Below are positions 235 to 41,698 of a stretch of 64,000 bases of DNA, one piece after another; the first letter of the stretch is position 1, and each line of letters opens with the position of its first letter. Under the pieces are notes generated by a model that worked only from the letters and a program-made list of their open reading frames with translations, was not told where the DNA came from and did not search any database. This DNA comes from Rhizophagus irregularis (taxonomy: Eukaryota): positions 5,022,001 through 5,086,000 of the forward strand of contig NC_089432.1 of assembly GCF_026210795.1 (NCBI RefSeq), written 5' to 3'. The translations under genes and the position numbers were made by a program.

Positions 235-2553
235 ATGTCTGATAATAAGCAAATGCAAAATACCGAAAATACAAATGAATGGATTAATTGGATTGAAGAA
301 GCTATTGTTAAAGAACATTTAAAATATTACGAATACAAAGAATTTAGTAACTTTCAAGAAATTGGTACCGGAGGTTTTGGAAAAGTGTATCGTGCAAAGT
401 GGAAAAACTTAGAAAAAAGTTTTGCCTTGAAATCTTTTTTTAGTCTTAATAATATCACTATGAAAGAAATTGTTCGTGAGGTAATTTAATATTATAATTA
501 ATTTTTTTTTTTTACTCTATAATTTTTTAGTATTATTATATTTATTTTAAAAACTTGAATTTATTTAGTTAAAAATTCAACGTGAAGTTGATTTTCATGA
601 TAATATTATTCGTTGCCATGGAATAACAAAATTTGAATCGGGTATTTATATAAAGATACTTTAGTAATAAATATAATCTTTTAAGATTTTATTCACAAAA
701 TTGCATTTCAATAATGATATTTTTTTTTTTAGAAAATCATCTTAATAATAATTATATGTTGGTAATAGAATACGCTGACGGTGGCAGTCTTCGAAATTAT
801 TTAAAGGAAAATTTCGGTGAACTTACCTGGGACGATAAGTACCTTATGGCGTATCAGTTAGCTTGCGCAGTATCATGCTTGCATGATGAGAAGATTATTC
901 ATCGTGACTTGGTAATTATTATTTTAGTCATTTTTAGGTAATTCAATGTTTGTATTTATTCATTTAGCACGCACTCTTTAATAGCACTCTGGCAATATAT
1001 TAGTCCATAAAAACACGATCAAATTAGCGGATTTTGGTCTATCAAAAAGAATTGGAGCATCGTCCAACTTTCAATCTAAATTATTTGGGATGGTTCCTTA
1101 TGTTGATCCAAAAAGTTTTAGCAGACGAAGAAATAATAATCAAATGTTTACATTAAATGAAAAAAGTGATGTTTACAGTGTTGGCGTATTATTATGGGAA
1201 ATTTCTAGTGGACAACCTCCTTTTTATGCTGAAGATGAACATTATGACGTTGGATTAATTTATGACATTTCACAAGGTCATAGAGAAACGGTTGTTCCCG
1301 ACACCCCCGAAGATTATATAAAAATTTATACTAGTAAGTAAAATTAATTTAAATCTAACTAGAGCTATTATTTTAATAAATTTTAAATTATATTTTTAAT
1401 TGTTTTAGAATGTTGGGACGGTGAGCCTGATAATCGACCTACTATTTATCAAGTAGTTGATTGGTTAAAAGCAAAGATTACAAAAACAGATATAATAACG
1501 GAAAATCCTCAATTATCAGATGAACAAGAACTTAATGAGGTTCCTTTAAGCACCAATAATTCAGAATCACAAGGAGATTTATCTCAACTTATCCAAAATT
1601 TTAATAAAATGAATACAAAAGAAATTGATAATATAGTAGTATCAAGTGAGCAAGAGATACTTTTAAATGAAAAGGATTTAAAGGATTTTAACAGAAAAGA
1701 TTTTAGCATTATAGTTGATGAAATAAATGATTTAATTTATAAATTATGTAATAAAGGAATTGAATGGAAATTAGTAAGAGAGCAAGTTATTGAATATTTT
1801 AATAATTATAATACAAATTCACAAGAAATTAATAATTGGTTATTAAATAATCAAAATAATTCAAATTCCATTTTTTTACTTGGATATTTTAATTTTTATG
1901 TAATTGAGACAAGCCGAAATTATGAGAAAGCATTTAAATTATTTATTAATTCATCAGAAAAAAATCATATATTAGCACAATCTTTTGTTGGTGGATGTTA
2001 TCAATATGGAAATGGAACTAAAAAAAATGAAAAGTTAGCTTTTAAATATTTTGAAAAATTAGCTAATAAAAATTTCACACATGGACAACTTAAAATTAGT
2101 TATTGTTATGAAAATGGAATAGGTATTGAAAAAGATTTAAAAAAGGCTTTTTATTGGTATGAAAAAGCCGCAAATAATGGAAATATATTAGCTAAGCATA
2201 ATCTTGGTCTTTGTTATAAAAATGGAAAAGGGGTTGAAAAAGATTATAACAAAGCTTTTGAATTGTTTAAACAATCAGCTGATGGAGGATATTTAGGTGG
2301 AATAACAATGTTAGGAAATTGTTGTTTTTATGGTATTGGAACTAAAATTGACAAGCAAAAAGCATTTGAACTATGTCAAAAATCAGCGAATTTAGGACAA
2401 ATGGTAGGACAATCTAATCTTGCTTTGATGTATGAAAGTGGAAATGGAATTATAAAGGACATGGATAAAGCGATTTATTGGTATGAAAAATCTGCCAAAC
2501 AAGGTTATCAGGATGCACAAAATAGATTAGAAATACTTCAAAAAAATAAATAA
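235..2553 (+). CDS. G1: TKL protein kinase-Sel1 repeat protein (~663 aa), 5 exons: 235-480, 569-641, 733-911, 985-1333, 1409-2553
   Basis: GT-AG introns join the ORF pieces in frame. Motifs [42 protein letters not shown]. About six Sel1 repeats (e.g. [26 protein letters not shown]). No signal peptide or TM segment seen. Confidence 0.92.
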
Positions 2554-3834
2554 TTTATAATAAATTCTTTCTTATTAAATCGTAAAATGTAAATCAATTA
2601 AATCAATTAAATTTGCTAAATTATTTTTTTTTATTTTATAGAATAGTGTATACTAAGATATAATAAATAAAATCTTATCAATATTTATAATCATCCTTAA
2701 GTAATTACAAGTATTTTTTTTTATCAAGTTAATATGTATATTTTTCTTATAAATTAAAATGTCGTTCTAGGATTTACAAAACTCATGAGGGTTTAATTCA
2801 TTTTTCCGAAAATTTAATTGTTAAAATTATTGATGCTTATTTTTTGGCACTATTTTTTGAAATGATCTCATATATGAAAGAAAATACAATGAAGTATGAT
2901 GGTAATTAAGGAAGTGCTTTTTATATTATATAAAGCAAAAAAAAAAATTAATAATTTAGATCTTTTATGTAAAAGAAATATTTTTATAAAATATAAAAAT
3001 ACTTGTATTATAAATCACTTATATTACTGTACGATATTGATTGTTAAGCATTTGTCAACCATATGATGGTAAACTTAAAATCAATGAATACCTGCTTAAA
3101 CTACATCAATCTAAATTTCTCATGATGTTTAAAATAAGAAGCAGAATGATGGCAGTATTGCGATTTTGATGTTTCATTTAATTGTTAATAAGTCGAATAA
3201 AAGAAATACCCGGTTTGTTAGTCTTTAAAAAGGTAACAATAAGTATTTGAGAAATGAAAATGTCACAATGAATCCAGGGTATAGGACTAAACGATCGTCA
3301 TTACTAGCTGGTAACAAAGCAACTGAAAATGTTTTCTATCTTTGAAAATATTAGCTGTTAAGTAAACAACTTGAGAGAAATTGGTAAATTTACGACAATA
3401 TGTTCAAACGTCCTTCACCAATCACCATCTGGTTTTTTAAGCCAATTTATACTCTCAAGTTGAAAATATTATTCTATATATTATTATTATTATCATGGTC
3501 TTGCATTAAATTAATAGATAAGTTCAAACTAACGAGCCCTAGTACAAAGTTTGTGCCACATAACTTATCGATGTTCTCTTTAAACTAATGTATATTTGTA
3601 TGGTTATCATAGTTATCGATAATAGGATATCGAATAATCAACCAACTTCAATTAGAAAATGTACCTAATTATTTATTATTAGACTACTAAAGATATAAGC
3701 TTACATAATTTTGTTTTAAAAATAATTACGCAATATTACCCAAGACCTACTTAAAGACGACATTGATTTTTTTCACATAATAATAATTTATACATTAAAA
3801 ATTCATTACAAATTACTTAATAATTATATAATTA

Positions 3835-4310
3835 TCATATTATATAAGTCATTTTCTGTTCATAAATGTTTATTTATTTCGAGCATCTTGATCTCCTTGT
3901 TTGACTGATTTTTCATATTAAAGTATCGCTTTACCAATATTTTTCGTTACTCCTTGTCCTATTTTAGTTCGTATGATTTTAAAAGATTAGGTATATTGAG
4001 CTGCACTATTTCCTAAATTTGCGACTTTTTGATATTATTCAAATTTCAAATTCATTTTGTCTATCAGTCAAATTGAAATAATATTGAAATGATCTCTGAA
4101 TACTCGATATATACGTATATATATCAGGAAAAAGAAAAAAATACATAGCTGATAATAATTATCTAATATTAAGCGAAAACTAAAAAATTTATGTTTATTT
4201 AGCGGCATAATCTTCTAAAAGTTTGATTATTTTTGATAAACCAATATTTGCTAACTTGATTGTGTTTGATTGACAGGCTCATTGACCAATATATTACTAG
4301 AGTATTATTA
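3835..4310 (-). pseudogene. Relic of G6-type kinase-Sel1 gene (last Sel1 repeats plus a kinase DFG-region remnant)
   Basis: tttatttcgagcatcttgatctccttgttt...gagctgcactatttcctaaattt matches 32806-32943; ttttgataaacc...aacttgat...accaatatattac matches 34212-34267; many indels. Confidence 0.8.
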
Positions 4311-5786
4311 AATAAATATAGTATATATTTTATATAAATACCGTAAATAACATAATTATATAGATAACGATTTGTCATACAATTTCTCCATTATATAACA
4401 TAAGTCCAAAGTCAATTTTAGAATAAATAATGATGTCATCAATTTCACTATATCTATTTGTTTCTTTTAGTGGTCAAAGATAGAGTAGCTAGAGTTATAT
4501 TATTTAAGATTATACAAATTTATTAAAGTACCAAATTTAGTAACAAATTTATATCAATATAATTTTTTAAGTATTTATAATCTACCTATTTAGTCGAAAC
4601 CTCGAAACCAAGCCAATGCGACCCGCCGAAATTTAATCAAAGCTAGATTTTATTTCCAGCTTAGATTTATTAAATCTCTATATTTTCGATTTATTTTTAT
4701 TAATGTTATTCAATTTTTCCTTCTATCTCTTTCATCCTTTGTATCATAAATACATTTCTGATTTTTTCAAATGTGATGTCGTAAAGAGGCGTTAATTATT
4801 AATATTCTCTTGTTTTTTAATGAAAAAAAAAGGTAACATACTCTAAAATTTAAAATGCGAAAAAAAAAATTGAATTGTGTCCTTTAGCAAACAAAATAAA
4901 TAAATTTATTTTATAGATACAGTATATTGAGTGCATAAATTTTGGTATGTATTAGAATCAAAATTTATTTGATACATTTTTTTTAATCTTTTTATGGTTT
5001 ATAATCACACAAATATTTATACTTTTTTTTCGCTTTTTTTTAATATCCATTTAATTTCATACTTTTTATCAATATGATAATGAATTTTTGACTTGGAAAA
5101 TATTTCAAAGCATAGTGATTTTAGCGATAATGATAGTTTGGAATACACTTCTTTTTAATAAGAATTAAATATTTCACCAAAGTTGCATTTTAACATAATA
5201 AATTGACCATATCTGAAAGGTATTTGTATTTTGGAAGGCCAAAAAAAAAGTTCAAGACCGAAAGAAACAGACAATATTATACCATTGTGAAACCGAAAAT
5301 TATATTACTATAAATATATCCAAAATAATGACCTTCGTTACTATATTTTAATGAACATTTAGTCATGATTTAGATCCTTTAGATGATTATTTATGTATTA
5401 ATATGACCTAAGATAATAATAAATTCAGTATTTAGATACGTAAATTATTCTTAATTTTTTTAGTTTATGTAATTAATTTTCGTATCTCTTGTTAACAATA
5501 GTACCAACGCACTGCAGTATGTGGTTCAAATTTGTTTATAAAAAAAGCTGGTTGATACCGTTTTCAATGTTAAAAATGACGAATAGGGCGTTATGAATAG
5601 ACTTTATTAAAGTCTAAAAAATGAGATGCAAAATTGCAAATTATCACGTGATATTTCGTTCATTACTGCGGAATTATCCAATTCTGTCGTTTTTTAATAC
5701 CTTTTGAGTGATTCAAAAATCACGTATAGTTATCTATCGAGAACTTTATTTTATTTATCATAATTCCGTCAAATTATTTATTCACT

Positions 5787-5913
5787 ATGTCCGACCATAT
5801 CAAAATGCAAGATACAGAAAATGCGAATGAATGAATTAATGGATTTGAAGAAATTATTGTTAAAGAACCGATACAGAACAATTTAGTAATTCTCAACAAA
5901 TTAGAATACCTGG
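5787..5913 (+). pseudogene. Relic of exon 1 of a kinase-Sel1 gene
   Basis: atgtccgaccatatcaaaatgcaagatacagaaaatgcgaatgaatga resembles the G2/G7 start, with the Trp codon changed to TGA and deletions; a single ATTACTGCGG lies upstream at 5662. Confidence 0.75.
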
Positions 5914-6730: not shown

Positions 6731-9006
6731 ATGTGTGATAATATCAAAATGCATGATACCGAAAATAAAAATGAATGGATTGATTGGATTAAAGAAGTTA
6801 TTGATAAGGAACATTTAAAATATTATGAATACAAAGAATTTAATAACTTTCAAGAAATTGGTACCGGAAGTTTTGGAAAAGTGTATCGTGCAAATTATAA
6901 AAATTTTGAAAAAAATTTCTCTTTGAAATCTTTTTTTGGTTTAAACAATATCACTATGAAAGGAATCGTTCGTGAGGTAATTTAGTATATATATATATAT
7001 AATATTTATTTATTTGTTTATTTATTTATTTTTTATTATTTTATAATTTATATTCTATTATATTTATTTCATAAACTTTGAATTTATTTTAGTTAAAAAT
7101 TCAACGTGAAATTGATTTTCATGAAAATATTATTCGTTATCATGGAGTAACAAAATTTGAATCAGGTATTTTGAAGTATACAGTACTTTAATGGTTTTTA
7201 TTAACAAAATTGTATATTAATGATTTCTTTTTTTTAGAAAATCGGATCAATGACAATTATATGCTAGTAATGGAATACGCCGACGGTGGTAGTCTTCGAA
7301 ATTATTTAAAGAAAAATTTTAGTAAACTTACCTGGGATGATAAGTACCTTATGGCGTATCAGTTAGCTTCCGCTGTATCATGCTTACATAATAAAGGGAT
7401 TGTCCATCATAACTTGGTAATTTATTTATTATTATTTAATGGTTGTGATAATGTTATATATTCAACTTTGTTTAATTAATATATATATTTTAATAGCACC
7501 CTGGTAATATATTGGTTCATCAAAACACAATCAAATTGGCGGATTTTGGATTATCAAAAAGAAATGGAATATCATCCAATTTTCAATCCAAATTATTTGA
7601 AATGATTCCTTATGTTGAACCAAAAGGTTATAGTGGGAGAACAAATAACAATAATCAAACACGAATACAATCCTTTAATAAGAAAAGTAATGTTTACAGT
7701 ATTGGTGTATTATTTTGGGAAATATCCAGCGGTCAATCTCCTTTTAATGCTAAAGTTGAACAATATGATGTTGGTTTAATTTTGGAAATTTCGCAAGGTC
7801 TTAGAGAGACTGTTATTCCCAACACACCTGAAGAATATACAAAAATTTATACTAGTAAGTATATTTGATTATAATTTGAATATTTATTTCAATAATAAAA
7901 TTAATTAAATTAAATTTTTTTATTTAGAATGTTGGGATGGTGAACCGGATGATCGACCTACCATATACCAAGTAGTAGATTGGTTAAAAGCAATTATTAC
8001 AAAAACAGATGTTAATGAAATCCCTTCAAATACCAATAATTCGGAATCACAAGAATTTATTTCTAGAATTATTCAAAATTTTGACAAAATAAGTCTGAAA
8101 GAAATTGATCCTATAACAATATCAAATGAACGAGAGAAACTTTCATTTGAAAAAGGTTTTGATAAAATAATTGATGAAGTAAATGATTTGATTTTTGAAT
8201 TATTTAATAAAGGAATTATATGGAAATTAGTAAAAGAACAAGTTATTGAATATCTTAATAATTATAATACTAATTCAAAAGAAATTTATAATTGGTTATT
8301 AAATAATCAAGATAATTTAAATTTCACTTTTTTACTTGGATTTTTTAATTATTCAGGAATTGAAACAAAAAAAAATAATGAGAAAGCATTTAAATTATTT
8401 ATTAAAGCATCAGAAAAAGATCATATATTAGCAAAATCTTATATTGGTGAATGTTATCAATATGGATATGGAACTTTAAAAAATGAAAAATTAGCTTTTG
8501 AATATTATCAAAATGTTGCAGATAAAAATTTTACTCATGGACAATTAAAAATTGGATATTTTTATAAAAATGGAAAAGTTATTGAAAAAGATTTAGAAAA
8601 AGCTTTTTATTGGTATAAAAAAGCTTCAAATAATGGAAATATTTTTGCTATGCATAATCTTGGTAATTGTTATTTAAGTGGTGAAGGTATTGAAAAAGAT
8701 TATAATGAAGCTTTTGAATTATTTAATCAATCAGCTGAAGGAGGTTATTCAAGTGGAATGACTTCATTAGCATATTGTTGTTATAATGGTATTGGTACTA
8801 ATGTTGATAAACAAAAAGCATTTGATTTATATCAAAAATCTGCAAATTTAGGTAGTATGACAGCACAATATAGTCTTGGTATTATGTATGAAAATGGAAA
8901 AGGAATTACAAAAGATATAGATAGAGCTATTTATTGGTATGAAAAATCTGCCAAACAAGGTCATCAAAAAGCACAAAAAAGATTAAAAGCACTTCAAAAA
9001 AATTAA
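6731..9006 (+). CDS. G2: TKL pseudokinase-Sel1 repeat protein (~644 aa), exons 6731-6976, 7093-7165, 7238-7416, 7497-7854, 7928-9006
   Basis: Same exon structure with the frame open throughout. Catalytic loop reads HHNL|HPGN instead of HRDLHSGN; subdomain IX reads KSNVYS instead of KSDVYS; DFG and the beta-3 Lys are retained. Confidence 0.85.
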
Positions 9007-9217: not shown

Positions 9218-9599
9218 TTTTTTTTTCATTATTAAATAAATAAATATTATTTTCACTTCGAATTACAATGTCATTCTAGGGTTAATAAACTAATCCACAT
9301 CAAATTATTCACAAAATTTAAATTACGGTGGCACTTTGATTTTAATATTTTCAATAAATTTCATTCATCAATATTAATTCTATCGGTGCTGCAATAATGA
9401 AATAAATTTAACCGAAAACTGAAACCAGAAATTCAAGACATAGGATCAGAAAATTATCATTAACGTAGAAAGCGAAATTTGCGAACAATTAGTGTATTTA
9501 TAAAAAATAAATGCTTGAATGATAGACTGATTCAATAATGACGCGTTAGGTTTTCTTCATCAGTGTTTTGTTAAAGCCGATTTAGCCGATTTAATACTA

Positions 9600-10153
9600 T
9601 TTATACTTTTAACTTGCTAATAATGTTATCAATATCTTTTATTTCATTAGCACTTATTGATTAATAAACATGTTCGAGTTAACTATAATCTTTTTTCTAT
9701 AATAATATAAATAATTCGAATACTTTCTCAATTTTTCATTTATTTTAATTCTTAAATAATCAGAATATTTTAATAAAAATATTTGAAACTAAAAATAATT
9801 TTGATTTCTTATTATAAACCAATTGTATATTTCACATAAAATTTATATATCATGATTATAAATATAAATTTAAAAATTTTTTAAATTTATAAACTTTTTT
9901 CCTTTAATCAGTTATTTTAAAAAAATTCTATCCCATTAACTATTGTGATTAATTTCTTTTCAAATATTATTCTTTTATCTAATATTTTATTTTTTTTTTC
10001 AATCTTTTTGTATTTGATTTGATTAAAATAATTGTTCGTTTGAATGATTGAGAAGTCAATTTCCGATAATCACAATTGATCTGTTTTCATAATGAATTCT
10101 TTTAATTTTATATATATCGGTATATGATCATCCTGTCCTCCCAAAATTCTAAT
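9600..10153 (-). pseudogene. Relic of G6-type gene (exon 5 region)
   Basis: Degraded match to ~33300-33840 (ttcgaatactttc...ttttcatttattttaat; taactattgtgattaa; ccaaaattctaat). Confidence 0.7.
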
Positions 10154-10174
10154 AAAATATTCTATAACTAATTG

Positions 10175-11745
10175 TTGGGTCCGTGGCGGAAGATCTCAAT
10201 CATTAAGAGAAACTCTCTCCTGTCGATCCATCAACCAAAAATTTTGCGGAGGAAAAATAGAAGAGAGATATAAAGTATATATACAAACATACATAGATAT
10301 GGAGTCATATTTTGAGCAGAAAGAGCTTCAAGTCAAATTTCTTGAAGAAATAAGCAAGTTTATTAAACATCACTTTAAGAATATGGGAAAACGACAAAGT
10401 CAGCTTCATAAAAAATATAGACCGAGTTTTTAGACAGTTCTACCAACGTAGGAACGATTAAACTTATCGATCCAAATTAAAGAAACAACTAAAAACTAGT
10501 TTTTTTTTTAAAAGAACAAGTTGCTCAGCAAAATTAAGTAGTGAGACAGCCAAACTATTACTGAAGTGTGGTGAAAATATAGCGTATGAGTTAATGTTAT
10601 ATCAGTTAAATAGGACGACAAAACGGCATACTAAAAGGATGGTTTAAGAGAGTCACGTATGAAAAAAAGAAAATTTCATACAAAAAAAAGAGCGAATCAT
10701 ATGGTAAAATCTGGAGTAAAACGGATAGAAAAATTTATGTCAGCAGTAAAGTAAACAGACGTTACAAAAAAGAATATAAACACAAAGTCTAAGTAATAGA
10801 CATTCCATAAGTTTACGATCTCTTTTTTATTATGATATACTAAAAAGATGGGTGTAATTCGTAACATAAGCTCATTTAGAGTTGTAAAGAAAATAAAAAT
10901 TAAAAACTTTATAAATTACAAACTGTAAGAGCAGATATGTGAATTTAAAAAGTTCTTTTGGTGTTATCATGTGGGAGAATTACGTGTGTTAATATAGTGG
11001 GAATACACGCACAGTGGAAAGAGCAGAGAGATCAATAGCAACTAGTGAGGAATGTTGAATACATTTCAAGTTGAGGTAAATTTTACAGAATAATATAAAA
11101 ATTTTCATACAAATTCAACGCAAGCTTTATATAATCGATAAAGTTCAACGGCTAATTACGCGTTGGAGAAATCATTTACAAGAGAATTAAAGTTTGGTTG
11201 ATCTACAAATGTAGGAATTTATCCAAACACTTTAATATAAATTACGTAGTCAAGACGCAATCAATAGAGAAGCAAAGTGAGAGAATACGAGTGGGGATAG
11301 AGATACAGATATAGATATAATGAAGTACTATGAAGATATTATATCGATATTTGATGATGGAGTAGGAAAAATTAATTTTGTTAGGAGGCAATTGACTCAG
11401 AGGATGAATTGTCACCAAAAAGTTTCTTGGTTTAAGAGACATGTACAGTATATCATAAAATGGATGAGAAGGTTGATGAGATCACAAAGACTTAAGATGA
11501 AACAACAAGTAAATTAGATGAAAAGATAAATCAGTGATCGTGATTGAGGATAATCCTACTCCATCTACTCCATCACCGGAACAGACTAAGGGTTTCCGGG
11601 CGACGTATGAAAAAAGCGAAGGAGAGAAAGTCGCAAGAGATGGTAAAGAATCAAGTAACTTCCCGATAAACAAACTACAAACACAATCATCGGACAAGAA
11701 TCACGTGATTCCGGAAACAGAAGAGGTCGTTGATACTATAACAGA
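10175..11745 (+). mobile_element. Decayed coding-like insertion, possibly a retroelement fragment
   Basis: Purine-rich, higher-GC block with broken ORFs between two G6 relics; no diagnostic RT or transposase motif recognised. Confidence 0.3.
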
Positions 11746-11749
11746 TAAA

Positions 11750-12630
11750 CACATAAATTTATTTCATGATTATTAATATAATTTAAAATAATTTTTTTCT
11801 TAATTTAGAATCTTTCCTTGATTCGTTGAATGATACTACCTCTTTAACTATTGTGATTAAAACTTCTTAAATATTATTCTTTTATTTATTGGTATCGTAA
11901 ATTTTATTTCTTTTGTAGAATTCGACTCGCAGTGATCAACTTGATCTATTTCCGTAATGATCTCATTTCACTTGATATATAGTTGGACGATTATCTGGTT
12001 CATCATTCTAATATTAGAAAAAAGAAAGAAATATAAGAAATTATTAAGCGAGAAACCAAAAGATTAATTTTAAATTATTTTCAATTTCTTGGCTCGTATA
12101 TTTGAGTTGACTTTCCTGACTCGTATATTATAGTATTAAGTAATATCAAAAAGAATTAAAAGAATTTTAGATTTAGTATTAAATTCTTTTTACCATCTTG
12201 ACGAAATATTTTACTGTATCAGCCGGCATATCAGGAACACGACCTCTCTAAGATTTTTTGGACATGTCAGTATCATCATGATGTTGATTATTTAGATATA
12301 AAAAGAGGTCGACCACGCCAAGAATAAATTTGTGTTGTGCTACTACTACTATCTTTTCTAAATCTTTGTGGATCAACGTAAGCGTTTGATTTTGATTGTG
12401 GCTAGTTATTTGATGGACTGATATATTATGAGAGTGCTATTGAAATTTAATCGAACGATTATGACGAATTTAAATAGCATGTCGATATTTTTAAATTTAA
12501 ATAAACCAATTTAAATAGTATGAAAAATAATTTACTATTCCTCCACTATTATAGTTTAGGCCAACTGATACGCTAAATTATTTTTATCACATCGAGTAAG
12601 GTTCTTGGATTTTTTGTCTTTAAAATATGC
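11750..12630 (-). pseudogene. Relic of G6-type gene (exons 3-5)
   Basis: atagttggacgattatc, ttattaagcgagaaaccaaaag, aatctttgtggatcaacgtaag, gagagtgcta and gccaactgatacgc match G6 between ~33490 and 34450; frameshifted. Confidence 0.82.
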
Positions 12631-17664: not shown

Positions 17665-18444
17665 AACTTAAGTGTCAATGAAACCTTACCAACATATTTT
17701 ATTATAAAGAATAAGCACAAGCAAGTGAATGTATTTATAGACTAACCCTCCAAAATATATTCTTATCTCTTTACAATTATTAACAACCTGGTTGAAAAAA
17801 AACTTGGTCAATTTGTCTTAAAAAAATAACGATAAATGGCAAGACCGAAAATCCAGGATCTAGGATTAACGATGATCACTAGTAGTTGGCAGAAAAGCAT
17901 CTTAAGTACCCGTTATCCTTTAAATAATAATTGTTAACTTGAGAAAAATTAGTAAATTTACAAAAAATATATGCTTGAATGATAAATATATTCAATGATA
18001 CTTCAAGTTGAAAAATATTATATTATTATTATGACCATGATCTTACAGTCCTTAAGTTCGTGTTGTACAACCACAATGATAACTCTATCAAATAATCAAA
18101 TCGATTTCAATTTTTTAAAAAAATGTAATATATATGTAATTATTTACTGTATTAATAGTATTTATTATATGAGTTAAAATTAAAAGATTTTACAAAAACT
18201 TTTTTATCTAAGATCTACTTAAAGGTGACATTTTCTTTACATAACTCAAACTTTATTATACATATTACTCGTACCCGCTCTCTCTGGTTATATGACAATA
18301 AACCTAAGCCTCCCAGCAAATTCATCAATGAAAGCAGGCTATGGGTGAAGATTATACTAACCAAGGGGAGGCGGAGTCTGATTATGAGGATGGAATATTC
18401 GAAGAAATCGATCCCTTAAAAATAATATTATTATTATCAAATAT

Positions 18445-18990
18445 TATAATATATAAATTTCCATTTTCTACTCGTTAGGGATTGGAATCGATTATCGAAT
18501 CTTTGTAGATTTGATTTTTTGTTCCTTAAAAGATAATCAATTTTAAGCTATAATAATTAATTCTATGATCAGTAAATATATAAATTCTGAATTAAAATTG
18601 TAAAATCTATTAAGAAATTATATATCGTTACTGTTACTACTGTTACTAATACCCAGCTGTAAATTACTATGCTGATTGTTTCCGACCATTTGCAGATCAT
18701 TTCGTCATTTTTAAGTTTTCTGAAAATATTTTTATTTTTTGGATGTAATGTTGAATTAATTTTTTTGTTTAATTTTAATTTTCTCTTCAATAAATGAGAT
18801 GCGATTTTGATTCGATTGTCGATTCCAATCCCTACCACTCGTAAGTGTTTTGATTTATTTCGAGCATCTTGATCTTCTTTGTTTTGGCAGATTTTTCATA
18901 ACAAGGTATAGCTTTACCAATATTTACTGCAAGATTATATTGAGATGCACGCTTTCTGTCTATCAACTTTAGTACCAATTCCATTATTAT
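18445..18990 (-). pseudogene. Relic of the G6-type 3' end, interrupted by a hAT MITE
   Basis: ttataatatataaattt...ccattttctactcgt, then tttatttcgagcatctt...agtaccaattccattatt; matches 32761-33006 with deletions. Confidence 0.82.
18476..18834. mobile_element. hAT-type MITE
   Basis: 26-bp TIR TAGGGATTGGAATCGAnnATCGAATC (2 mismatches); 8-bp TSD CTACTCGT/CCACTCGT; empty site visible in G6 at ~32787. Confidence 0.9.
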
Positions 18991-19028
18991 GAATAAAAAT
19001 TTTTTATTTTAATAAGTGATCCTACGTC

Positions 19029-19181: not shown

Positions 19182-21598
19182 ATGTCTGATAATAAGAAAA
19201 TTCAAAATACTAAAAATACAAATGAATGGGTTAATTGGATTCAAGAAGCTATTGATAAAGAACACTTAAATTATTATGAATACAACCAATTTACTAACAT
19301 TCAAGAAATTGGCGCCGGAGGTTTCGGAAAAGTGTACCGCGCAAATTGGAAAAATACAAAAAAACAATTAGCGTTAAAAACTTTTTTCAACCTTAATCAT
19401 ATCACCATTAAAGAAATTGTTTGTGAGGTAATTTCAGTTATTATTGATATATCTTTTTCTACGATGCTTTTTTAGTCTGTAACTCTGTATTTATTTATTT
19501 TAATATTTGTATTTATTTTAGTTAAAAATTCAGCGTAAAGTTGATTTCCATGATAATATAATTCGTTGTCATGGAATAACAAAATTTGAATCAGGTATTA
19601 TATGGTATTATAAGAGACTTTAATAAGTACTATGTTATTCTAAATTTTATTCACAAAGTGCTTTCAATTTTTTTTTTAGAAAATCAAATTGGTAATAATT
19701 ATATGATGGTAATGGAATACGCTGACAGTGGTAGTCTTCGAAACTATTTGGAAAAAAACTTTAGTAATCTCACTTGGAACGATAAATTCAATATGGCGCA
19801 CCAATTAGCTTACGCTGTATCATGCTTGCATAATGAAGGGATCATCCATCGTGACTTGGTAAGTTAATTATTCTTATTTAATAATTATTCATAACGCTGT
19901 ATTTGCATTTACTTATATGTCTTTTATAGCATTCCGGCAATATATTAGTTCATCAAAATGTGATCAAATTGGCAGATTTTGGATTATCAAAAAGAATTGG
20001 AGCATCATCCAATATTCAATCCAAATTATTTGGGATAGTTCCCTATATTGATCCGAAAAGCTTTAACAAACGAAGAAATAATAATAACCAAGTGTTTTCA
20101 TTAAATGAAAAAAGTGATGTTTACAGTGTTGGCGTATTATTATGGGAAATATCCAGTGGCCAACCTCTTTTTTATGCTGAAGGTGAAGAATATGATGTTA
20201 GTTTGATTTTGGAAATTTCACAAGGTCTTAGAGAAACTATTGTTCCTGACACGCCCGAAGAATATGTAAAAATTTATACTAGTAAGTAAAATTTTAAATT
20301 TAAATATAACTAGAATACTATTGCTGGTGATTCTCACCGTGCATTGGCAAATAGTAACGGGCAGAGTTTCATGACATTTTTAATTCGGTCCGAAATTCTA
20401 CCCTAATTCTGGTAAGGTGATAATCACTTGCGGTATTCTATTATCTTAATCACTAACCTTAAATTATATTTGTGTTTTAGACTGTTGGGACGGTGAGCCA
20501 GATAATCGTCCTACTATATATCAAGTAGTTGATTTGTTAAAAGCAATGTTTATTACAAAAACAGATATAATAGCAGAAAATCCTCAATTATTAGATGAGC
20601 AAGAACTTAGTGAAGTCCATTTAAGTACCAATAATTCAGGACTACAAGGAGAATTGTTCCAACTTATTCAAAATTTTGATGAAATGAATACAAATGAAAT
20701 TGATAATACAATAGTAAATATACAAGAGAAACTTTTAGCCGAAAAAGATTTTAGCAAAGTAGTTGATGAAACAAATGATTTAATTTTTAAATTGTATAAT
20801 AAAGGAATTGATATGGATTTAGTAAAAGAACAAATTATTAAATATTTTAATAACTATAATACAAATTCACAAGAAATTTATAATTGGCTATCAAATAATC
20901 AAAGTTCAAATTCGATTTTTTTACTTGGATATTTTAATTTGCTTGGAATTGAGATAAGTAAAAATAACGAGAAAGCATTTGACTTATTTATTAGTGCATC
21001 AGAAAAGGATCATATATTAGCACAATCTTTTGTTGGTGTATGTTATCAATATGGAAATGGAACTATAAAAAATGAAAAATTAGCTTTTAAATATTATGAA
21101 AAAGCGGCTAATAAAAATTTCGCACGTGGACAACTTAAAATTGGTTATTTTTATGACAATGGAATAGGCACAAAAAAAGATTTAAAAAAGGCTTTTTATT
21201 GGTATGAAAAAGCTGCAAATAATGGTAATATAATAGCTATGCATAATTTAGGTAGATGTTATTTAAATGGAGAGGGTGTTGAAAAGGATTATAATAAAGC
21301 TTTTTGGTTATTTAAGCAATCAGCTGAAGGGGGATATTCAAGTGGAGTAACAATGTTAGGATATTGTTATAATTATGGTATTGGAACTAACATTGATAAG
21401 CAAAAAGCTTTTGAATTATATCAAAAATCAGCAAATTTAGGAAATAAGGTAGCACGATGCAATCTTGGTATGATGTATGAATTCGGAGATGGAATCACAA
21501 AAGATAAATATAAAGCGATTTATTGGTATGAAAAATCTGCCAAACAAGGATATCATAAAGCACAAAATAGATTAGAAATACTTCAAAAAAATCAATAA
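19182..21598 (+). CDS. G4: TKL kinase-Sel1 repeat protein (~655 aa), exons 19182-19427, 19522-19594, 19680-19858, 19930-20281, 20481-21598
   Basis: Same motifs and intron phases as G1; intron 4 enlarged by a MITE. Confidence 0.92.
20313..20438. mobile_element. MITE in intron 4 of G4
   Basis: TA|GAATAC...GTGATTCTCACC at the left end and GGTGATAATCAC...GTATTC|TA at the right; TA on both flanks; absent from intron 4 of the paralogs. Confidence 0.75.
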
Positions 21599-27887: not shown

Positions 27888-28694
27888 ACCAATTTCTCAC
27901 GATATTAAATATCAATAGAAGTAGTAAGTACGATTGAAGCGACCGACGGCAGCAACGATGGTATTTAATTTTGTTATTTTCAATTAATCCATTTATCATA
28001 ATAATTATTAATAAATTAATTAAAAAAAGTTTTATATGTAAAAAATATAATGTATTTTCCATACAATATATTGTAAAAAAATTTGTTAATTTTTATATAA
28101 ATTTGTACAAAGAATTATTAATTATACATATAATATTGTTAGTTATATTGCATAAATTTCGACAAATTTAACTATTTGTGCAATATTGAATACCCTGAAA
28201 ATTTTGTGATGTGTGTTGCCGCAAGAACGACTGAAATCCAAGTCCTGGATTTCAGGATCTAGGATTGAAATTAGTGAATTTACGAAAAATATATGCTTGA
28301 ATGATAAATCCACTCAATAATGATGCATTATCCTTTATCAACGGTATTTTTTTTATATCCAATGTATCCAATTCAAGTTAAACATGAACTCTTGTATTAT
28401 TCGTCCTTAAGTTCGTGTTATACGACCACCTATCGATGATAACTCCCTGAACGAATGCATACCAACATCGCAAAGTAATTCAATAAAAATTAGTTATCAA
28501 ATAATCAAATCGATTCAAAAAAAAATTTATAATTTTTACATAAATTTTTTTTTAATAATAATTATACACAAAATTACCCAAGATCTACTTAAAGGCGACA
28601 TTGAATTTTTTTTTTTTTACATAATAATAACTCATATACATTATTATACATATTACAAATAAATTGCTAAAAAATAATATTATTATTATCAAAT

Positions 28695-28927
28695 ATTATA
28701 ATATGTAAATTCTCTCGTAAATGTTGTAATTTATTTCGAGCATCTTTATCTCCTTGTTTGGCAGATTTTTCATACCAAAGTATAGCTTTACCAACATTTT
28801 TCGTTACTCTTAATCATGTTTCAAATGATACTGCAAGATTTTATTGAGCACTATTTCTTAAATTCGCTGCTTTCTGATATAATTCAAATGCTTTTTGTCT
28901 ATCAACTTTAGTACCAATTCCATTATT
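28695..28927 (-). pseudogene. Relic of the G6-type 3' end
   Basis: Near-identical to 32761-33006 with small deletions; ends at agtaccaattccattatt, about 30 bp before the G5 upstream motif. Confidence 0.85.
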
Positions 28928-28955
28928 TTAATAAGTAATCTTAATCTCCTAAGTC

Positions 28956-29146: not shown

Positions 29147-31421
29147 ATGTCCGATAATAAGCAAATGCAAAATACCGAAAATACAAATGAATGGATTAAT
29201 TGGATTGAAGAAGCTATTGATAAAGAACATTTAAATCATTATGAATACAACCAATTTACTAATATTCAAGAAATTGGTTCTGGAGGTTTCGGAAAAGTGT
29301 ACCGTGCAAATTGGAAAAATACAAAAAAACAATTAGCATTAAAAACTTTTTTTAATCTTAATCATGTCACCATGAAAGAAATCGTTTGTGAGGTAATTTA
29401 TTATATAATACCTTTTTTTTACGATGTTTTTTAACCTATATTATTTTATTTTTAATATTTGAATTTATTTTAGTTAAAAATTCAACGTAAAGTTGATTTC
29501 CACGATAATATTATTCGCTGCCATGGAATAACAAAATTTGAATCAGGTATTATAAATATTATAAAGAGATATTATATCTAAATTTTATTCACAAAATTTC
29601 ATTCCAATTTTTTTTTTTTTAGACAATCAAATTGGTAATAATAATTATATAATGGTAATGGAATACGCCGACGGTGGTAGTCTTCGAAATTATTTGGAAA
29701 AAAACTTTAATAGGCTCACATGGGACGATAAATTAGATATGGCATACCAATTAGCTTACGCTGTATCATGCTTGCATAATGAAGGGATCATCCATCGTGA
29801 CTTGGTAATTTATGTATTATTATTTAATCATTGTTCGTAACACTGTATTTGTATTTATTTATTTATATATGTTTTTTTAATAGCATTCCGGCAATATATT
29901 AGTTCATCAAAACATGATCAAATTGGCAGATTTTGGGTTATCAAAAAGAATTGGAGCATCATCCAATTTCCAATCTAAATTATTTGGGATGGTTCCCTAT
30001 ATTGATCCGAAAAGCTTTAGTAGACGAAGAAATAATAATAACCAAATTTTTTCATTAAATGAAAAAAGCGATGTTTACAGTGTTGGCGTATTATTATGGG
30101 AAATATCCAGTGGCCAACCTCCTTTTTATGTTGAAGGTGAAGAATATGATGTTAGTTTAATTTTGGAAATTTCACAAGGCCTTAGAGAAACGGTTGTTTC
30201 TGACACGCCCGAAGAATATGTAAAACTTTATACTAGTAAGTAAAATTTTAAATTTATTATAATTTAAATATTGTTTTAATTAATTATATTTGTGTTTTAG
30301 AATGTTGGGACGGTGAGCCAGATAATCGTCCTACTATATATCAAGTAGTTGATTTGTTAAAAGCAATAATTACAAAAACAGATATAATTACGGAAAATCC
30401 TCCATTATTGAATGAGCAAGAATTTAGCGAGATCCATTTAAATACCAATAATTCGGAATCACAAGGAAAATTATCCCAACTTATTCAAAATTTTAATAAA
30501 ATGGACACAAAAGAAATTGATAATATAGTAGTATCAAATAAGCAAGAGAAATTTTCAACTGAAAAAGATTTTAACATAGTAGTTGATAAAATAAATGATT
30601 TAATTTATAAATCCTATGATAAAGGAATTGAAGGGGAATTAGCAAAAGAGCAAGTTATTGAATATTTTAACAATTATAATATAAATTCACAAGAAATTTA
30701 TAATTGGTTATTAAATAATCAAGTTAATTCAAATTCCATTTTTTTACTTGGATATTTTTATTATTATAGAATTGAGACTAGTGAAAATAATGAGAAAGCA
30801 TTTAATTTATTTATCAATGCATCAGAAAACAATCATATATTAGCACAATCTTTTGTTGGTGAATGTTATCAATATGGTTATGGAACTATAAAAAATGATA
30901 AACTAGCTTTTGAACATTTTGAAAAAGTGGCTAATAAAAATTTCACATATGGAAAATTTAAAATTGGTTCTTATTATATGGAAGGAATAGGTATTAAAAA
31001 AGACTTAAAAAAGGGTATTTATTGGTATGAAATAGCTGCAAATAATGGAAATATGATTTCCATACATGATTTAGGTATTTTTTATTTATATGGAATTGGT
31101 GTTGAAAAAGATTTTAATAAAGCTTTTGAATTATTTAAACAATCAGCTGAAGGAGGAAATTTAATTGGAATGATTTCATTAGGATTTTGTTATGAAAGAG
31201 GTATTGGAACTAAAATTGATAAGCAAAAAGCATTTGAATTATATCAAAAATCAGCAAATCTAGGAAGTAAAATAGCACAATATAATGTTGGTAATATGTA
31301 TGGAAATGGAAATGGAATTACAAAAGACATAGATAAAGCAATTTATTGGTATGAAAAATCCGCCAAACAAGGATATCAAGATGCACAAAATAAGTTAAAA
31401 ATACTTCAAAAAAATCGATAA
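29147..31421 (+). CDS. G5: TKL kinase-Sel1 repeat protein (~657 aa), exons 29147-29392, 29474-29546, 29623-29804, 29884-30235, 30301-31421
   Basis: GSGGFG, HRDL|HSGN, DFG and DVYS present; Sel1 repeats; canonical splice sites. Confidence 0.92.
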
Positions 31422-32760
31422 TTTATAAATTCTTTCTTTATTAAATTGTAAAATGTTAAATAAATTAAATTTGTTACATTTTTTTTTTTTAATTTACAAA
31501 ATAGCGTAATATACTGTATAATAAATAAGTCTTATTAAATTTAATGATCATTCTATTGACGGTATTTTTTCATTATCAAAATAACTGAATATATAGTATA
31601 TTTCTCTTTTAAATTAAAATGTCGTTCTAGGGATTTCAAAATCCATGAGGATTTGATTTATTTTTCCGAAAATTTAATTGTTTAAAAAAAATTTGATACT
31701 TATTTGTTAGTATTATTTTTTGAAACGACCGTATATATGAAAAAAAAAGATAATGAAAGATGATGGTAACTAAAGCAATGCTTTTTATATCTAAAGCAAA
31801 AAAAAATTGATTTAAAATTTTTATACTTTTTTTATAAAATATAAAAATATTACTATAAATCACGTATACGAAGAATTTTTTACGATATTGATTGGTCGAC
31901 GGTAAACTTAATTAAATATCTACCTGCATACGCTTACGTCACTCTTACTAACATACTTTATCTGTTTATCATAAGGAATGGATGTGTTTTATAAACTAAT
32001 CCTCCAAAATAATATTTTTATCGCTTTACCAACTGAATTTCTCACGATATTAAATATCAATAGAAGTAATAAGTACGATTGAAGCGACCGACGGCAGCAA
32101 CGATGGATTTAATTTTGTCATTTTCAATTAATCCATTTATCATATTAATTATTAATAAATTGATTAAAAAAAAGATACCGTCTGTTTGTCTTCAAAAAAA
32201 ATGATGATAAATGAGTGCCTGTGTTGCCGCAAAACCGGAAATCCAGGATCTAGGATTGACGATCGTCATTAGTTGGCAGAAATGTTAACTTGAGAGAAAT
32301 TAGTGAATTTACGAAAAATATATGCTTGAGTGATAAATTAATGACACATTATCGGTGATTATCCTTTATCAACGGTATTTTTTTATATCCAATATATCCA
32401 ATTCAAGTTGAAAATATTATTTTATATTAAGTTCGTGTTGTACGACCTATCGACCTGAACGAATGCATACCAATATCGTATAGTAACTAGTCAATAAATC
32501 GATTTCAATTTTTTTTTAAAAAAATTTATAATATGTAATTATTTACTATATTAATATTTTATTATTTGAATATTAAAATTAAAAGATTTTACATAATTTT
32601 TTTTTTTTTACTAATAATAATTATACACAATATTACCCAAGATCTACTTAAAGGCGACATTGAAATTTTTTTTTACATAATAATAACTCATACATTATTA
32701 TAATACATATTAAAAAATAAATTGCTAAAAAAAAAATATTATTATTATTATTATCAAATA

Positions 32761-36537: not shown

Positions 36538-36693
36538 TTTATCGAATTTTTTTTTTTCAGGTGCTTTACTTGTAATCATATAATTACTCATTATTTATGA
36601 CTATGAAGCTCTTGCTTTAATTTTCTCCTTCATAATTTTCTACTTCATTTAATTATCCTATTGATTGTTCAAGGTTTTCTCTAATTAAATATG

Positions 36694-36892: not shown

Positions 36893-37799
36893 AGTAATTA
36901 AGTAATTATTAAAGTATTCCTCGTAACTGTCATTTAAAATATGTTTATCATATCGGAAGTAGTTTATGGTAAATCTTTTGTCTTTTTGATTAATTTTGAT
37001 TTTTTGACTTTGATTCGTAATATAGTATGTATTATCTATTTGGTTATAAAATTGTGTGATTAGCCAAATTTATCGTGACGACGTGACGACCGTGACGTTA
37101 ATAATGATGATCTCACTTATTTTCTTTTTCTATGATAAAAAAAGTCAATGCAAATCAATTAATAATAAACTGTTTATTTGCGTAAGTTGCGTAAGAAAAT
37201 ATGTTTAAAGACAAAATTTAAATTTTCAATGTAAAATATTATTTTATTTTATGTGGCGTTAATTCATGACGTAGAAATTTGTAATTTAACTATCATTCAC
37301 GTGTTTCGATTCTAAACGTTTTTCCGATATATTTAGATTAATAAAATGTTCACAGTAGCAACAAACAAATGAGATTAAAAAGAAATGATTCTTCAAAATA
37401 GTTACATAGCGGTACAGTAGTTATTAGTCGATTTAGATAGAGTATTATTATTTTTTCGTGTAACAATTGGTATAAGAATTAATAACGTACCCAAAAATTA
37501 CTATTTTTTTTTTTTCGTCGGAAATTTTTTTTTAAAAACCATTTTTTTTTTTATTAAAAATACGAAGTCAACACTTAAATTTCCTATAAAATTTTTTAAG
37601 GATGCTACAAAATACAAAATACAAAATTTGGATTCATATGTAATGAAAAGACATATTAGCATAGCAAGCACACATTTCTTTTAAATTATAGATATATTTA
37701 TATCAGTTCCATCATTATAAAATATAAAATAGCGAAATTAGAAGGTAATATAACAATTTTGCAATATATTTATAAGTATTTATTGAAATGTTAGTTTCT

Positions 37800-38325
37800 A
37801 TAGATGAAGAAAAGTATTCGCTTGTTCTTGAATATGCGGACTGTGGAACATTAGGAAAATATCTAAGGGACGATACTATGACTTTTAATTGGGAGAACCA
37901 ATTAAGATTACAAGTGCGATTTTATGGTTACATGATGTTAAGGGAATCCGTACATGGGGATCTGGTAAATAAAATATTTTGTGTTATCTTACTATATTAC
38001 GTAATTAACATATTCTTTTTTTAGCATCCCAATAATAGCTTTAATACACCAAGATGCAATAAAATTGTCAGATTTTTGTCGTTCATTTGAAAAAGGAAAG
38101 GGCTGTAATGATACTGGAGTATATGGTGTAATACCCTATGTGGACTCCAACATGCTTAATCGAGAAATTTTTATAAGATATTCTGGGAATTAGCAAGTCG
38201 CTCATCACCTTTCAATTATGAAACGAGAAACTATCACACTTCTCCTATGTTGGATATTCTTAGTGGTTAAGAGAAGAACCGATTCCAAACACGAATATTA
38301 AATTTATTAAACTTTATCAACGTAA
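37800..38325 (+). pseudogene. TKL kinase pseudogene fragment of a different subfamily
   Basis: YSLVLEYADCGTL, HGDL|intron|HPNN, IKLSDFC, YGVIPYVD, FWELAS...PF, ILSG*REEPIPNT; frameshifts and an in-frame stop. Confidence 0.82.
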
Positions 38326-39397: not shown

Positions 39398-41698
39398 TTA
39401 CGATTTTAGTGAAAGAATTTCAAAATATTTTTTTTGTGCTTTTTGATATCCTTGTTTGGCGGATTTTTCATACCAATAAATCGCTTTATCTATGTCTTTT
39501 GTAATTCCATTTCCACTTTCATACATCAAAGCAAGATTAGATTGTGCTATCATGTCTCCTAAATTTGCTGATTTTTGATATAATTTAAATGCTTTTTGCT
39601 TGTCAATTTTAGTTCCAAAACCATTAAAATAACAATATCCTAACGTTGTCATTCCACTTGAATTTCCCCCTTCGACTGATTGCTTAACTAATTCAAAAGC
39701 TTTATTATGATCTTTTATGACACCCTCTCCATTTAAATAACAAAGACCTAAATCATGTATGGCTATCATATTTCCATTATTGGCAGCTTTTTCATACCAA
39801 TAAATACCCTTTATTAAGTCTTTTTCAATGCCTACTCCTTTCATATAATAATAACCAATTTGAAATTTTCCATATGTGAAATTTTTATTAGCCACTTTTT
39901 CAAAATATTTAAAAGCTAGTTCATCATTTTTTGTAGTTCCATAACCATATTGATAACATATACCAACAAAAGATTGTGCTGATATATTATTTTTTTCTGA
40001 TGCATTAATAAATAAATTAAATGCTTTCTCATAATTTCTGCTTGTCTCAATTCCATAAAAATTAAAATATCCAAGTAAAAAAATGGAATTTGAATTATTT
40101 TGATTATTTGATAACCAATTATAAATTTCTTGTGAATTTGTATTATGGTTATTAAAATATTCAATAACTTGCTCTTTTAACAATTCTTCTCCAACTCCTT
40201 TATTTAATAATTTAAAAACTAAATCAATTATTTCATCAGCTATTATGTTAAAATCTTTTTGAGTTGGAATATTTTCTTGTTTACTTGACATTACTATAGG
40301 ATCAAATTCTTTAGTATCCATTTTGTCAAAATTTTGGATAAGCTGAGATAATTCTCCTTGTGATTCTGAATTATTGGTACTTAAAGGTGGTGCTTCATTG
40401 ATTTCTTGCTCATTTGATAATTGAGGATTTTCCGTTATTATATCTGTTTTTGTAATTAAAGCCTTTAACCAATCAACAACTTGATATATGGTAGGACGAT
40501 TATCTGGTTCACCATCCCAACATTCTGAAAAATACGGTAAATATAATTTGAGATTAATTAAAAATAATATTAAAATTAAAAACTAAATTTAAAATATTAC
40601 TTACTAGTATAAATTGTTACATATTCCTCAGGTGTTTCAGGAACAATAGTTTCTCTATGGCCTTGTGAAATATCCAAAATTAAACTAACATCATATTGTC
40701 CATCTTCAGCATCAAAAGGAGGTCGGCCACTAGATAATTCCCATAATAATACGCCAATACTGTAAATATCACTTTTTTCATTTAATGAGTATATTTGTGT
40801 TTGGTTATTATTATTTCTTTTCCTGCTAAAGCTTTTTGGATCAACATAAGGGACCAACCCAAATACTTTGGATTGAAAATTGGATGATGCTCCAATTCGT
40901 CTTGATAATCCAAAGTCCGCCAATTTGATCGTGTTTTGATGGACTAATATATTGCCAGAGTGCTATTAAAAGTATATATTAAATAAGTATATACAAATAT
41001 AAAATTACCAACAATAATAAATAAATTACCAAATCACGATGGACAATCCCCTCATTATGTAAGCAAGATACAGCGCTAGCCAACTGATACGCCATAAGGT
41101 ACTTATCATCCCAAGTAAGTTTACTAAAGTTTTTTTTCAAATAACTTCGGAGACTACCACTGTCGGCGTATTCCATTACTAGCATATAATTGTTATTAAT
41201 ATGATTTTCTAAGGAATAAAGGGAATAAGTAATCATTAAAAAAATATTTTTATTAATAAATTTGGTACATTTATTATTAAGGTAGAAATTAATAATACCT
41301 GATTCAAATTTTGTTATTCCATGACAACGAATAATATTATCATGGAAATCGACTTCACGTTGAATTCTTAGCTAAATAAATTTCAAATTTTTTTAAAAAA
41401 TAAATATAATATTAAAAATCGCAAATAAAAAAAATTCTTGTACATTAATTACCTCACGAACAATTTCTTTAACGGTGAGATTGTTAAGATTAAAAAAAGA
41501 CTTTAACGCAAAATATTTATCCAAATTTTTCCAATTTGCACGATAAACTTTTCCAAAACCCCCGGTACCAATTTCTTGAAAGTTATTAAATTCGTCATAT
41601 TTGTAATATTTTAATTGATTTTTGTCAATAGTTTCTTCAATCCAATTTATCCATTCATTTTTATTCTCAGTATCATGCATTTTGATATTTTCAGACAT
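39398..41698 (-). CDS. G7: TKL kinase-Sel1 repeat protein (~660 aa), exons 41698-41453, 41371-41299, 41208-41030, 40962-40605, 40524-39398
   Basis: Inverted copy of the G1/G2 type; GTGGFG, HRDL|HSGN, DFG and DIYS present; Sel1 repeats. Confidence 0.92.

What the first reader, a model, noticed from the sequence alone, without database searches (positions are those of the whole stretch)
2411..40060. Patchwork shuffling of Sel1 repeats between paralogs (gene conversion signature)
G7 resembles G2 at its N-terminus and kinase ([27 protein letters not shown]), G1 in repeats 1 and 6 ([25 protein letters not shown], an identical ~42-nt stretch at 2411-2452 and ~39502-39543), and G5 in repeats 3-4 (FTYGKF.IG.YYM...[20 protein letters not shown]). 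G2 and G4 share AMHNLG.CYL.GEG.EKDYN...GGYSSG.T although their kinases fall in different groups (G3/G4/G5 share YNQFTNIQ...KKQLALK...IVCE). G7 is inverted, so simple unequal crossing-over cannot account for its mosaicism. This implies repeat-scale cassette exchange that creates new combinations.
Basis: partly seen in the sequence, partly recalled or inferred. Interest (0 to 1): 0.78.

Follow-up and report, generated by a model that had tools for sequence, protein, structure and literature searches.

The report
Old swaps among fungal kinase-Sel1 duplicates
Seven neighbouring kinase-plus-repeat genes of a root-symbiotic fungus show two real traces of DNA exchange between copies, likely left by ordinary, old recombination in a tandem array rather than by a repeat-shuffling system.

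Summary
The window holds seven intact five-exon kinase + six-Sel1-repeat genes; G1-G5 are identical to annotated Rhizophagus irregularis proteins. Recombination between them is real (PHI p<0.001; a recombination statistic reached by 0 of 300 no-recombination simulations), but it reduces to two signals. First, G3/G4/G5 share a young kinase half on linker+Sel1 halves that are no more related than any others, also at synonymous sites (p=0.0001). Second, G5 and inverted G7 share one ~210-nt tract, repeat 2 to early repeat 4, now 93% identical. Without G5 or G7 the Sel1 domain shows no recombination signal. The 44-nt G1/G7 identity is chance-level (21-59% of simulations); the G2/G4 and G2/G7 patches fail correction. 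All 42 repeats are nearest to a same-position repeat, so nothing is shuffled between positions. R. diaphanus orthologues of G2 and G3 keep 212 of 216 Sel1 residues, so turnover is slow. No sign of mis-assembly. Binding-face positions vary (omega 1.1-1.4), not significantly above 1. Verdict: ordinary, old, in-register exchange in a birth-and-death array, like plant resistance-gene clusters; not found described for this family in my searches.

The parts
235..2553 (+). G1, kinase + 6 Sel1; exons 235-480, 569-641, 733-911, 985-1333, 1409-2553; 663 aa
   Evidence: 100% identical to P0206 (OCT59_024388)
6731..9006 (+). G2, 644 aa; likely pseudokinase (HHN in place of HRD, GTGSFG, SNVY)
   Evidence: identical to P0208 (OCT59_024389); R. 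diaphanus orthologue P0207 96.4% over 445 aa
13552..15818 (+). G3, 655 aa; G3/G4/G5-type kinase half to about 14770
   Evidence: identical to P0286 (OCT59_024390); R. diaphanus orthologue P0228 95.6%
19182..21598 (+). G4, 655 aa; G3/G4/G5-type kinase half to about 20570
   Evidence: identical to P0203 (OCT59_024391)
29147..31421 (+). G5, 657 aa; G3/G4/G5-type kinase half to about 30440
   Evidence: identical to P0007 (OCT59_024394); Pfam PF07714 + PF08238
32761..35066 (-). G6, 632 aa, divergent member (about 70% nucleotide identity to the others)
39398..41698 (-). G7, 660 aa, inverted; exons 41453-41698, 41299-41371, 41030-41208, 40605-40962, 39398-40524
   Evidence: six Sel1 stretches; no near-identical record among the listed hits
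30869..31076 (+). G5 copy of the shared G5/G7 tract (repeat 2 codon ~9 to repeat 4 codon ~6)
39746..39953 (-). G7 copy of the shared G5/G7 tract, 193 of 208 nt identical to G5
   Evidence: AU test
2409..2452 (+). 44-nt stretch of G1 repeat 6 identical to G7 39502-39545; not beyond chance
39502..39545 (-). G7 copy of the 44-nt stretch
3666..4066 (-). decayed G6-like remnant downstream of G1
   Evidence: tblastn and blastn
9476..12411 (-). scattered G6-like remnants downstream of G2 (9691-10186, 11750-12074, 12322-12411)
17775..18990 (-). G6-like 3' remnant and flank between G3 and G4
   Evidence: blastn
28267..28934 (-). G6-like 3' remnant between G4 and G5 (87.5% amino-acid identity to G6 residues 552-623)
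42445..42905 (-). family remnant (linker and repeats 5-6) upstream of G7

Best explanation
This is a tandem array of Rhizophagus kinase-Sel1 genes whose copies carry two real traces of sequence exchange, likely made long ago by ordinary homologous recombination between aligned copies. Shown: the kinase halves of G3, G4 and G5 are younger than their linker+Sel1 halves; G5 and G7 share one ~210-nt tract across repeats 2-4; every repeat keeps its position. Inferred: the array grew by duplicating a unit of one plus-strand gene and one G6-like minus-strand gene, most partners decayed, and unequal crossing-over or long conversion with breakpoints in the linker put one kinase type on several older Sel1 halves; a separate non-crossover conversion copied the repeat 2-4 tract between G5, G7 or an outside copy (direction unresolved). 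Inferred function: cytoplasmic signalling proteins in which the Sel1 superhelix binds a partner and the kinase relays; exchange occasionally yields a new kinase/binding-face pairing, after which the pairing is kept under purifying selection.
For: PHI p=0.0005 (floor of 2000 permutations) for the whole CDS, at third positions, and p=0.001 (floor) with any one gene dropped; it holds with one site per codon. Single-tree simulations with region and codon-position rates, with and without autocorrelated rates, reached the observed triplet-range statistic (3.69) and cherry-cluster statistic (10.4) in 0 of 300 each. AU: the kinase rejects the Sel1 tree (p 9e-5), the repeat 2-4a segment rejects the kinase tree (p 7e-7) (that segment was chosen after seeing the data). 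Synonymous sites only: within-G345/between ratio 0.46 in the kinase and 1.02 beyond, 9 against 0 diagnostic codons, p=0.0001; it holds without G7 (0.0006) or G5 (0.0007). G4/G5 similarity runs through introns (85-94%) and the 5' flank (94%) and into the upstream remnant. Same-chromosome paralogues P0010 and P0123 repeat the pattern (G5-like kinase, then a switch; p 5e-5). 42 of 42 repeats in register. Tract already 7% diverged; G2 and G3 Sel1 domains match R. diaphanus orthologues at 212 of 216 residues each. Assembly: G1-G5 proteins are identical to database records, G3 and G5 under several accessions; G7 contigs from four runs of four studies span 39589-39892 with no difference, and two runs bridge the 5' end of the tract.
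Against: No synonymous-only triplet passes Bonferroni (best p=0.0007 of 112). The pair G4/G5 against G1/G2 loses significance when the split is placed at the first repeat (p=0.19). My GENECONV-like scan gave the G5/G7 tract only global P 0.04-0.64 depending on settings. Crossing-over and conversion cannot be told apart here, nor donor from recipient. P0146 (R. diaphanus, accession next to the G2 orthologue) is only 81% identical to G1 with a G5-like exon 3 and G1-like exon 4 (triplet p 0.03-0.06), which hints at exchange or turnover after the species split and inside the kinase. No single contig spans all of G7 and no long reads were seen. The binding function is not tested.
Confidence: 0.75

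Rival explanations
1. Repeat-scale cassette exchange: individual Sel1 repeats are swapped often between paralogues, building new combinations as a diversifying mechanism.
For: Nearest neighbours change from repeat to repeat and a copying model paints every gene as a patchwork (run with no null, so not a test). Sel1 distances of the two halves correlate only 0.42 across 44 family proteins, against 0.70 for the two kinase halves. G1/G7 share rare residues in repeat 6 (2-5%). Old, overlapping short tracts would erase their own signal and leave a star-like Sel1 tree, as seen.
Against: PHI finds nothing in the Sel1 domain without G5 or G7 (p 0.28-0.94); no out-of-register repeat; the one supported tract spans parts of three repeats and is 7% diverged; orthologues in R. 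diaphanus are unchanged in repeat content for G2 and G3.
Confidence: 0.12
2. No exchange: a rapid burst of duplications left an unresolved tree, and the patches come from retained ancestral residues, uneven rates and convergent changes at a few variable positions.
For: Internal branches are very short. This explains the 44-nt run, the N-terminal motif and the G2/G4 motif. In one search the summed contig depth is many times the flanking level over the two G1/G7 identical stretches, as expected of sequence shared by many copies (summed depth is not a copy number).
Against: Cannot give the synonymous-site decoupling, the simulation results or the G5/G7 cluster with synonymous changes among its sites.
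Confidence: 0.08
3. Assembly chimeras between similar paralogues created the mosaics.
For: No long reads were available and no contig spans all of G7; G7 has no identical record among listed hits.
Against: The G5/G7 tract differs at 15 of 208 nt, so it is not a collapsed copy; the longest identical run between any two genes is 67 nt; independent runs bridge the tract ends; G1-G5 match database proteins exactly.
Confidence: 0.03

Closest known systems
Expanded tyrosine-kinase-like (PF07714) + Sel1 (PF08238) genes of Glomeromycotina
   Same: It is this family: same domains, G1-G5 identical to annotated R. irregularis proteins; 714 hits at E<=1e-100. The expansion, tandem arrays and location in the rearranging B compartment are in print (PMC8647823, PMC6123716, bioRxiv 10.1101/2021.08.12.456011; passages read).
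   Different: The passages I read describe copy number, methylation and transposon links, not exchange between paralogues.
Plant resistance-gene clusters (Cf-4/Cf-9, RGC2, RPP5 type; recalled, not read here)
   Same: Tandem paralogues, decayed copies, conserved signalling half and variable repeat half, in-register exchange by unequal crossing-over and conversion.
   Different: Kinase + Sel1 rather than NB-LRR or receptor-like protein; no significant omega above 1 here; no ligand or immune role shown.
Fungal NLRs with high internal repeat conservation (Podospora HNWD/NWD, TPR and ANK NLRs; PMC4986451, PMC13449251, passages read)
   Same: Repeat sensor domain, variability at helix positions, reported exchange of repeats between genes.
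   Different: Those have near-identical repeats within a gene, repeat-number polymorphism, shuffling between positions and a NOD domain. Here repeats of different positions are at most 56-74% identical, all seven genes have six, none moved, and Pfam finds no NOD.
Programmed cassette conversion (trypanosome VSG, Neisseria pilin, chicken Ig; recalled)
   Same: Short tracts copied between related sequences; silent fragments nearby.
   Different: No single expression site, no fresh identical tracts, and most fragments here are G6-like while G6 is equally distant from all intact genes.

Membership tests
AMF kinase-Sel1 expanded family | N-terminal PF07714/PF00069 kinase plus C-terminal PF08238 repeats | tested here: met
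   model with kinase fold and Sel1 helix pairs
AMF kinase-Sel1 expanded family | Closest relatives are Glomeromycotina multi-copy genes | tested here: met
Inter-paralogue recombination in a tandem array | Significantly incongruent trees along the gene | tested here: met
Inter-paralogue recombination in a tandem array | Signal present at synonymous sites, not only at selected residues | tested here: met
   (p=0.0001 for the kinase/Sel1 split); third-position PHI; single triplets miss Bonferroni
Gene conversion in the strict sense | Non-reciprocal transfer with an identified donor and recipient | tested here: inconclusive
   a shared internal tract fits conversion, but the direction is unresolved and a third carrier, P0024, exists
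High-internal-conservation NLR repeat shuffling (HNWD type) | Near-identical repeats within a gene | tested here: not met
   best identity to any other-position repeat 56-74%
High-internal-conservation NLR repeat shuffling (HNWD type) | Exchange between repeat positions or change in repeat number | tested here: not met
   42 of 42 in register, six repeats in all seven genes; longer family members exist elsewhere and were not analysed
High-internal-conservation NLR repeat shuffling (HNWD type) | NACHT or NB-ARC domain | tested here: not met
   Pfam scan of G5 (P0007)
High-internal-conservation NLR repeat shuffling (HNWD type) | Positive selection at binding-face positions | tested here: inconclusive
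   omega 1.10-1.38 at repeat positions 36,3,4,7,10,11 against 0.26-0.28 elsewhere; p 0.57 and 0.06 against omega=1; 1.11, p 0.54 for positions chosen from 53 outside homologues
Programmed cassette conversion | Silent donor cassettes and recent, identical tracts in an expressed recipient | tested here: not met
   tract 93% identical; remnants mostly G6-like; the remnant at 42445-42905 was not tested as a donor
Immune or non-self receptor | Ligand binding and a downstream response | not testable with these tools
   no data

The most novel reading that the evidence does not exclude
Kinase-Sel1 arrays are the variable receptor repertoire of arbuscular mycorrhizal fungi: recombination mounts one successful kinase module on many different Sel1 binding surfaces and rewrites those surfaces by conversion, playing the role that NLR clusters play in plants and ascomycetes, and generating new sensors without sex.
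Probability: 0.2. Interest if true: 0.65.

Novelty: new member of a known kind. Interest (0 to 1): 0.32.

Why it matters
It shows that the largest signalling gene family of mycorrhizal fungi evolves partly by exchange between paralogues, so single-gene trees and orthology calls for it are unreliable, and that kinase and Sel1 halves have separate histories. That pattern is common in tandem gene families; it would matter more if a genome-wide, multi-strain analysis showed ongoing exchange aimed at the binding face and a role in sensing hosts, microbes or other strains.

Tried and rejected
No whole genome is held for this window, so DNA-level tests used only the seven genes; outside copies were compared as proteins. 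Counting-based pN/pS of 2.5-3 at repeat positions 7, 10, 11 and 36 was rejected as evidence of positive selection: a likelihood codon model gave 1.1-1.4. The M1a/M2a likelihood ratio printed is invalid because M1a did not converge; M2a itself gave the omega>1 class no weight. The IQ-TREE codon fits returned no parsed value. The copying-model painting has no null and was used only to place tract ends. Five 36-nt windows were closer to another repeat position; all are at 64-83% identity and were not counted as exchange. P0141 and P0003 were checked as possible G7 alleles and are not (48-59%). Short 'joints' have 20-26 letters on the short side and were treated as paralogue noise. G5 itself was not covered by a read lay. 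One search failed on a pattern error; one search timed out and its alignment files were reused. Rows dropped: 5 redundant or allelic records, 4 more close paralogues, and 14 redundant ids, then 15 of 59 aligned proteins lacking a part. The search of earlier findings returned nothing. Eight paper searches listed no study of exchange among AMF kinase-Sel1 paralogues; subscription papers, including several key AMF genome papers, are not in the library, and no supplements were read.
Full report
What is there. Six-frame translation and splicing give seven intact genes of 632-663 aa with the same five exons: G1-G5 on the plus strand, G6 and G7 on the minus strand. Each has a tyrosine-kinase-like domain and six Sel1 repeats (Pfam). 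The AlphaFold model of G5 shows a kinase, a low-confidence linker (312-372), three helices and six helix pairs (pLDDT 79); fold matches are Sel1 proteins and Tyr/TKL kinases. G1-G5 are identical to R. irregularis proteins OCT59_024388, 389, 390, 391 and 394. G7 had no near-identical record among the listed hits. Six genes are 80-88% identical in DNA, G6 about 70%. Each of G1-G4 is followed by a decayed minus-strand G6-like remnant, and only the partner behind G5 is intact; I infer that the duplicated unit was a convergent gene pair.

Is there recombination? Yes. My PHI implementation gives p=0.0005 (permutation floor) for the whole CDS and for third positions, and p=0.001 (floor) with any gene dropped; it holds with one site per codon. 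Simulations on one tree with nine rate partitions, with and without autocorrelated rates, reached neither of two observed statistics in 300 runs each. The kinase rejects the Sel1 tree and the repeat 2-4a segment rejects the kinase tree in AU tests; repeats 1, 4b-5 and 6 alone reject it weakly or not at all (p 0.05-0.13).

Signal one: kinase and Sel1 halves are decoupled. G3/G4/G5 form a clade in the kinase (bootstrap 100) but not beyond it. At codons with an invariant amino acid, divergence within the trio is 0.46 of that to G1/G2/G7 in the kinase and 1.02 beyond, with 9 against 0 diagnostic codons (p=0.0001; 0.0006 without G7, 0.0007 without G5; weaker for G4/G5 alone). Selection on residues cannot produce that. 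Estimated switch points scatter from the end of the kinase through the linker to just before repeat 1. G4 and G5 also share introns and 5' flank back into the upstream remnant, as unequal crossing-over would leave. Paralogues P0010 and P0123 on the same chromosome-size record show the same switch; across 44 family proteins the nearest neighbour is the same for kinase and Sel1 in 12 (no null was run for this count).

Signal two: one G5/G7 tract. Sites grouping G5 with G7 cluster from repeat 2 codon 12 to repeat 4 codon 4 and include synonymous ones. Over G7 39746-39953 / G5 30869-31076 the two share 193 of 208 nt, against 154-175 for comparisons with G1-G4 and 756 of 895 in the kinase. The shared residues are rare in 63 family sequences. 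P0024, on another chromosome-size record and about 62-67% identical to these genes, carries part of the same repeat-3 type and groups with G5/G7 in the Sel1 tree, so the donor need not be in the window. With G5 or G7 removed, PHI finds nothing in the Sel1 domain (p 0.28-0.94).

The other patches. The 44-nt G1/G7 identity is real but not significant (global P 0.29-0.48; 63 and 178 of 300 simulations give a run that long). G1 and G7 do share rare residues there, but both fall outside the G3/G4/G5 group, so common descent suffices. The G2-like exon 3 of G7 is suggestive (p=0.0074 of 107 triplets). The G2/G4 repeat-4 motif is matched better by outside homologues. No repeat has moved: 42 of 42 are nearest to the same position.

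Age and assembly. The tract has diverged by 7%. R. diaphanus orthologues of G2 and G3 keep 212 of 216 Sel1 residues each, and an allele of G4 from another R. irregularis record 214 of 216, so these combinations are stable. Against this, P0146, whose accession is next to the G2 orthologue, is 81% identical to G1 and looks chimeric inside the kinase (p 0.03-0.06); its position is inferred from accession order only. Contigs from four runs of four studies span G7 39589-39892 without a difference and two bridge the tract's 5' end; none spans the whole gene.

Selection. Variation concentrates at repeat positions 3, 4, 7, 10, 11, 13, 16 and 36. The first five lie in the first helix of each repeat (DSSP); that they face the binding groove is recalled TPR geometry, consistent with what PMC4986451 reports for fungal NLR TPRs, and was not computed on the model. 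A codon model gives omega 1.1-1.4 there and 0.26-0.28 elsewhere, not significantly above 1; kinase 0.27, Sel1 overall 0.36.

Mechanism. Shown: two exchange signals, in register, already diverged. Inferred: birth-and-death duplication, unequal crossing-over or long conversion through the linker among same-strand copies, and one conversion tract involving G5 and G7. Conversion is indifferent to orientation, but G7's inversion proves nothing: G5 may be the recipient and the event may predate the inversion. A sensing role is inferred from architecture only.

Comparison and novelty. The family expansion is known (passages read in PMC8647823, PMC6123716, PMC8778642 and bioRxiv 10.1101/2021.08.12.456011). 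Repeat exchange between genes is known for fungal NLRs (passages in PMC4986451, PMC13449251, PMC10197012), but the defining features of that system fail here. The closest analogue, plant resistance-gene clusters, is recalled; one search listing was not read further. Eight searches listed no analysis of exchange among AMF kinase-Sel1 paralogues; the library lacks most subscription papers and I read no supplements. Verdict: real but ordinary and smaller than claimed; new member of a known kind; interest 0.32.

Noticed in passing
window 3666-4066, 9476-12411, 17775-18990, 28267-28934 (minus strand): Decayed G6-like copies follow G1-G4, implying that the tandem unit was a convergent pair of kinase-Sel1 genes of which only G6 survives.
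   Followed up: partly
window 6731-9006: G2 has HHN for HRD and other catalytic-motif changes, yet its R. diaphanus orthologue is 96% identical from residue 202 on: a likely conserved pseudokinase. The orthologue record does not cover the HRD site.
   Followed up: partly
window 63444-64000: Start of an eighth family gene on the plus strand, cut by the window end.
   Followed up: no
window 37776-38323 and 5754-5902: A decayed kinase fragment of another type and a short remnant of a family 5' end.
   Followed up: no
window 48691-52145 (minus strand): Multi-exon gene with trypsin-like and PDZ domains; looks like an Nma111-type protease (name recalled).
   Followed up: no
window 22943-23329 (minus) and 23675-24938: RNase H-like remnant next to a degenerate tandem repeat of about 170 nt, between G4 and G5.
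   Followed up: no
window about 20320-20450: G4 intron 4 carries an insertion of about 130 nt that the other genes lack.
   Followed up: no
window 27891-28028 and 32036-32172: A 138-nt intergenic direct repeat at 96% identity, younger than the gene duplications.
   Followed up: no
proteins P0004, P0141, P0003: P0004 has an internal duplication of about 46 residues in the linker; P0141 and P0003 hold two kinase-end/Sel1 units in one model, either fusions or merged gene models.
   Followed up: no
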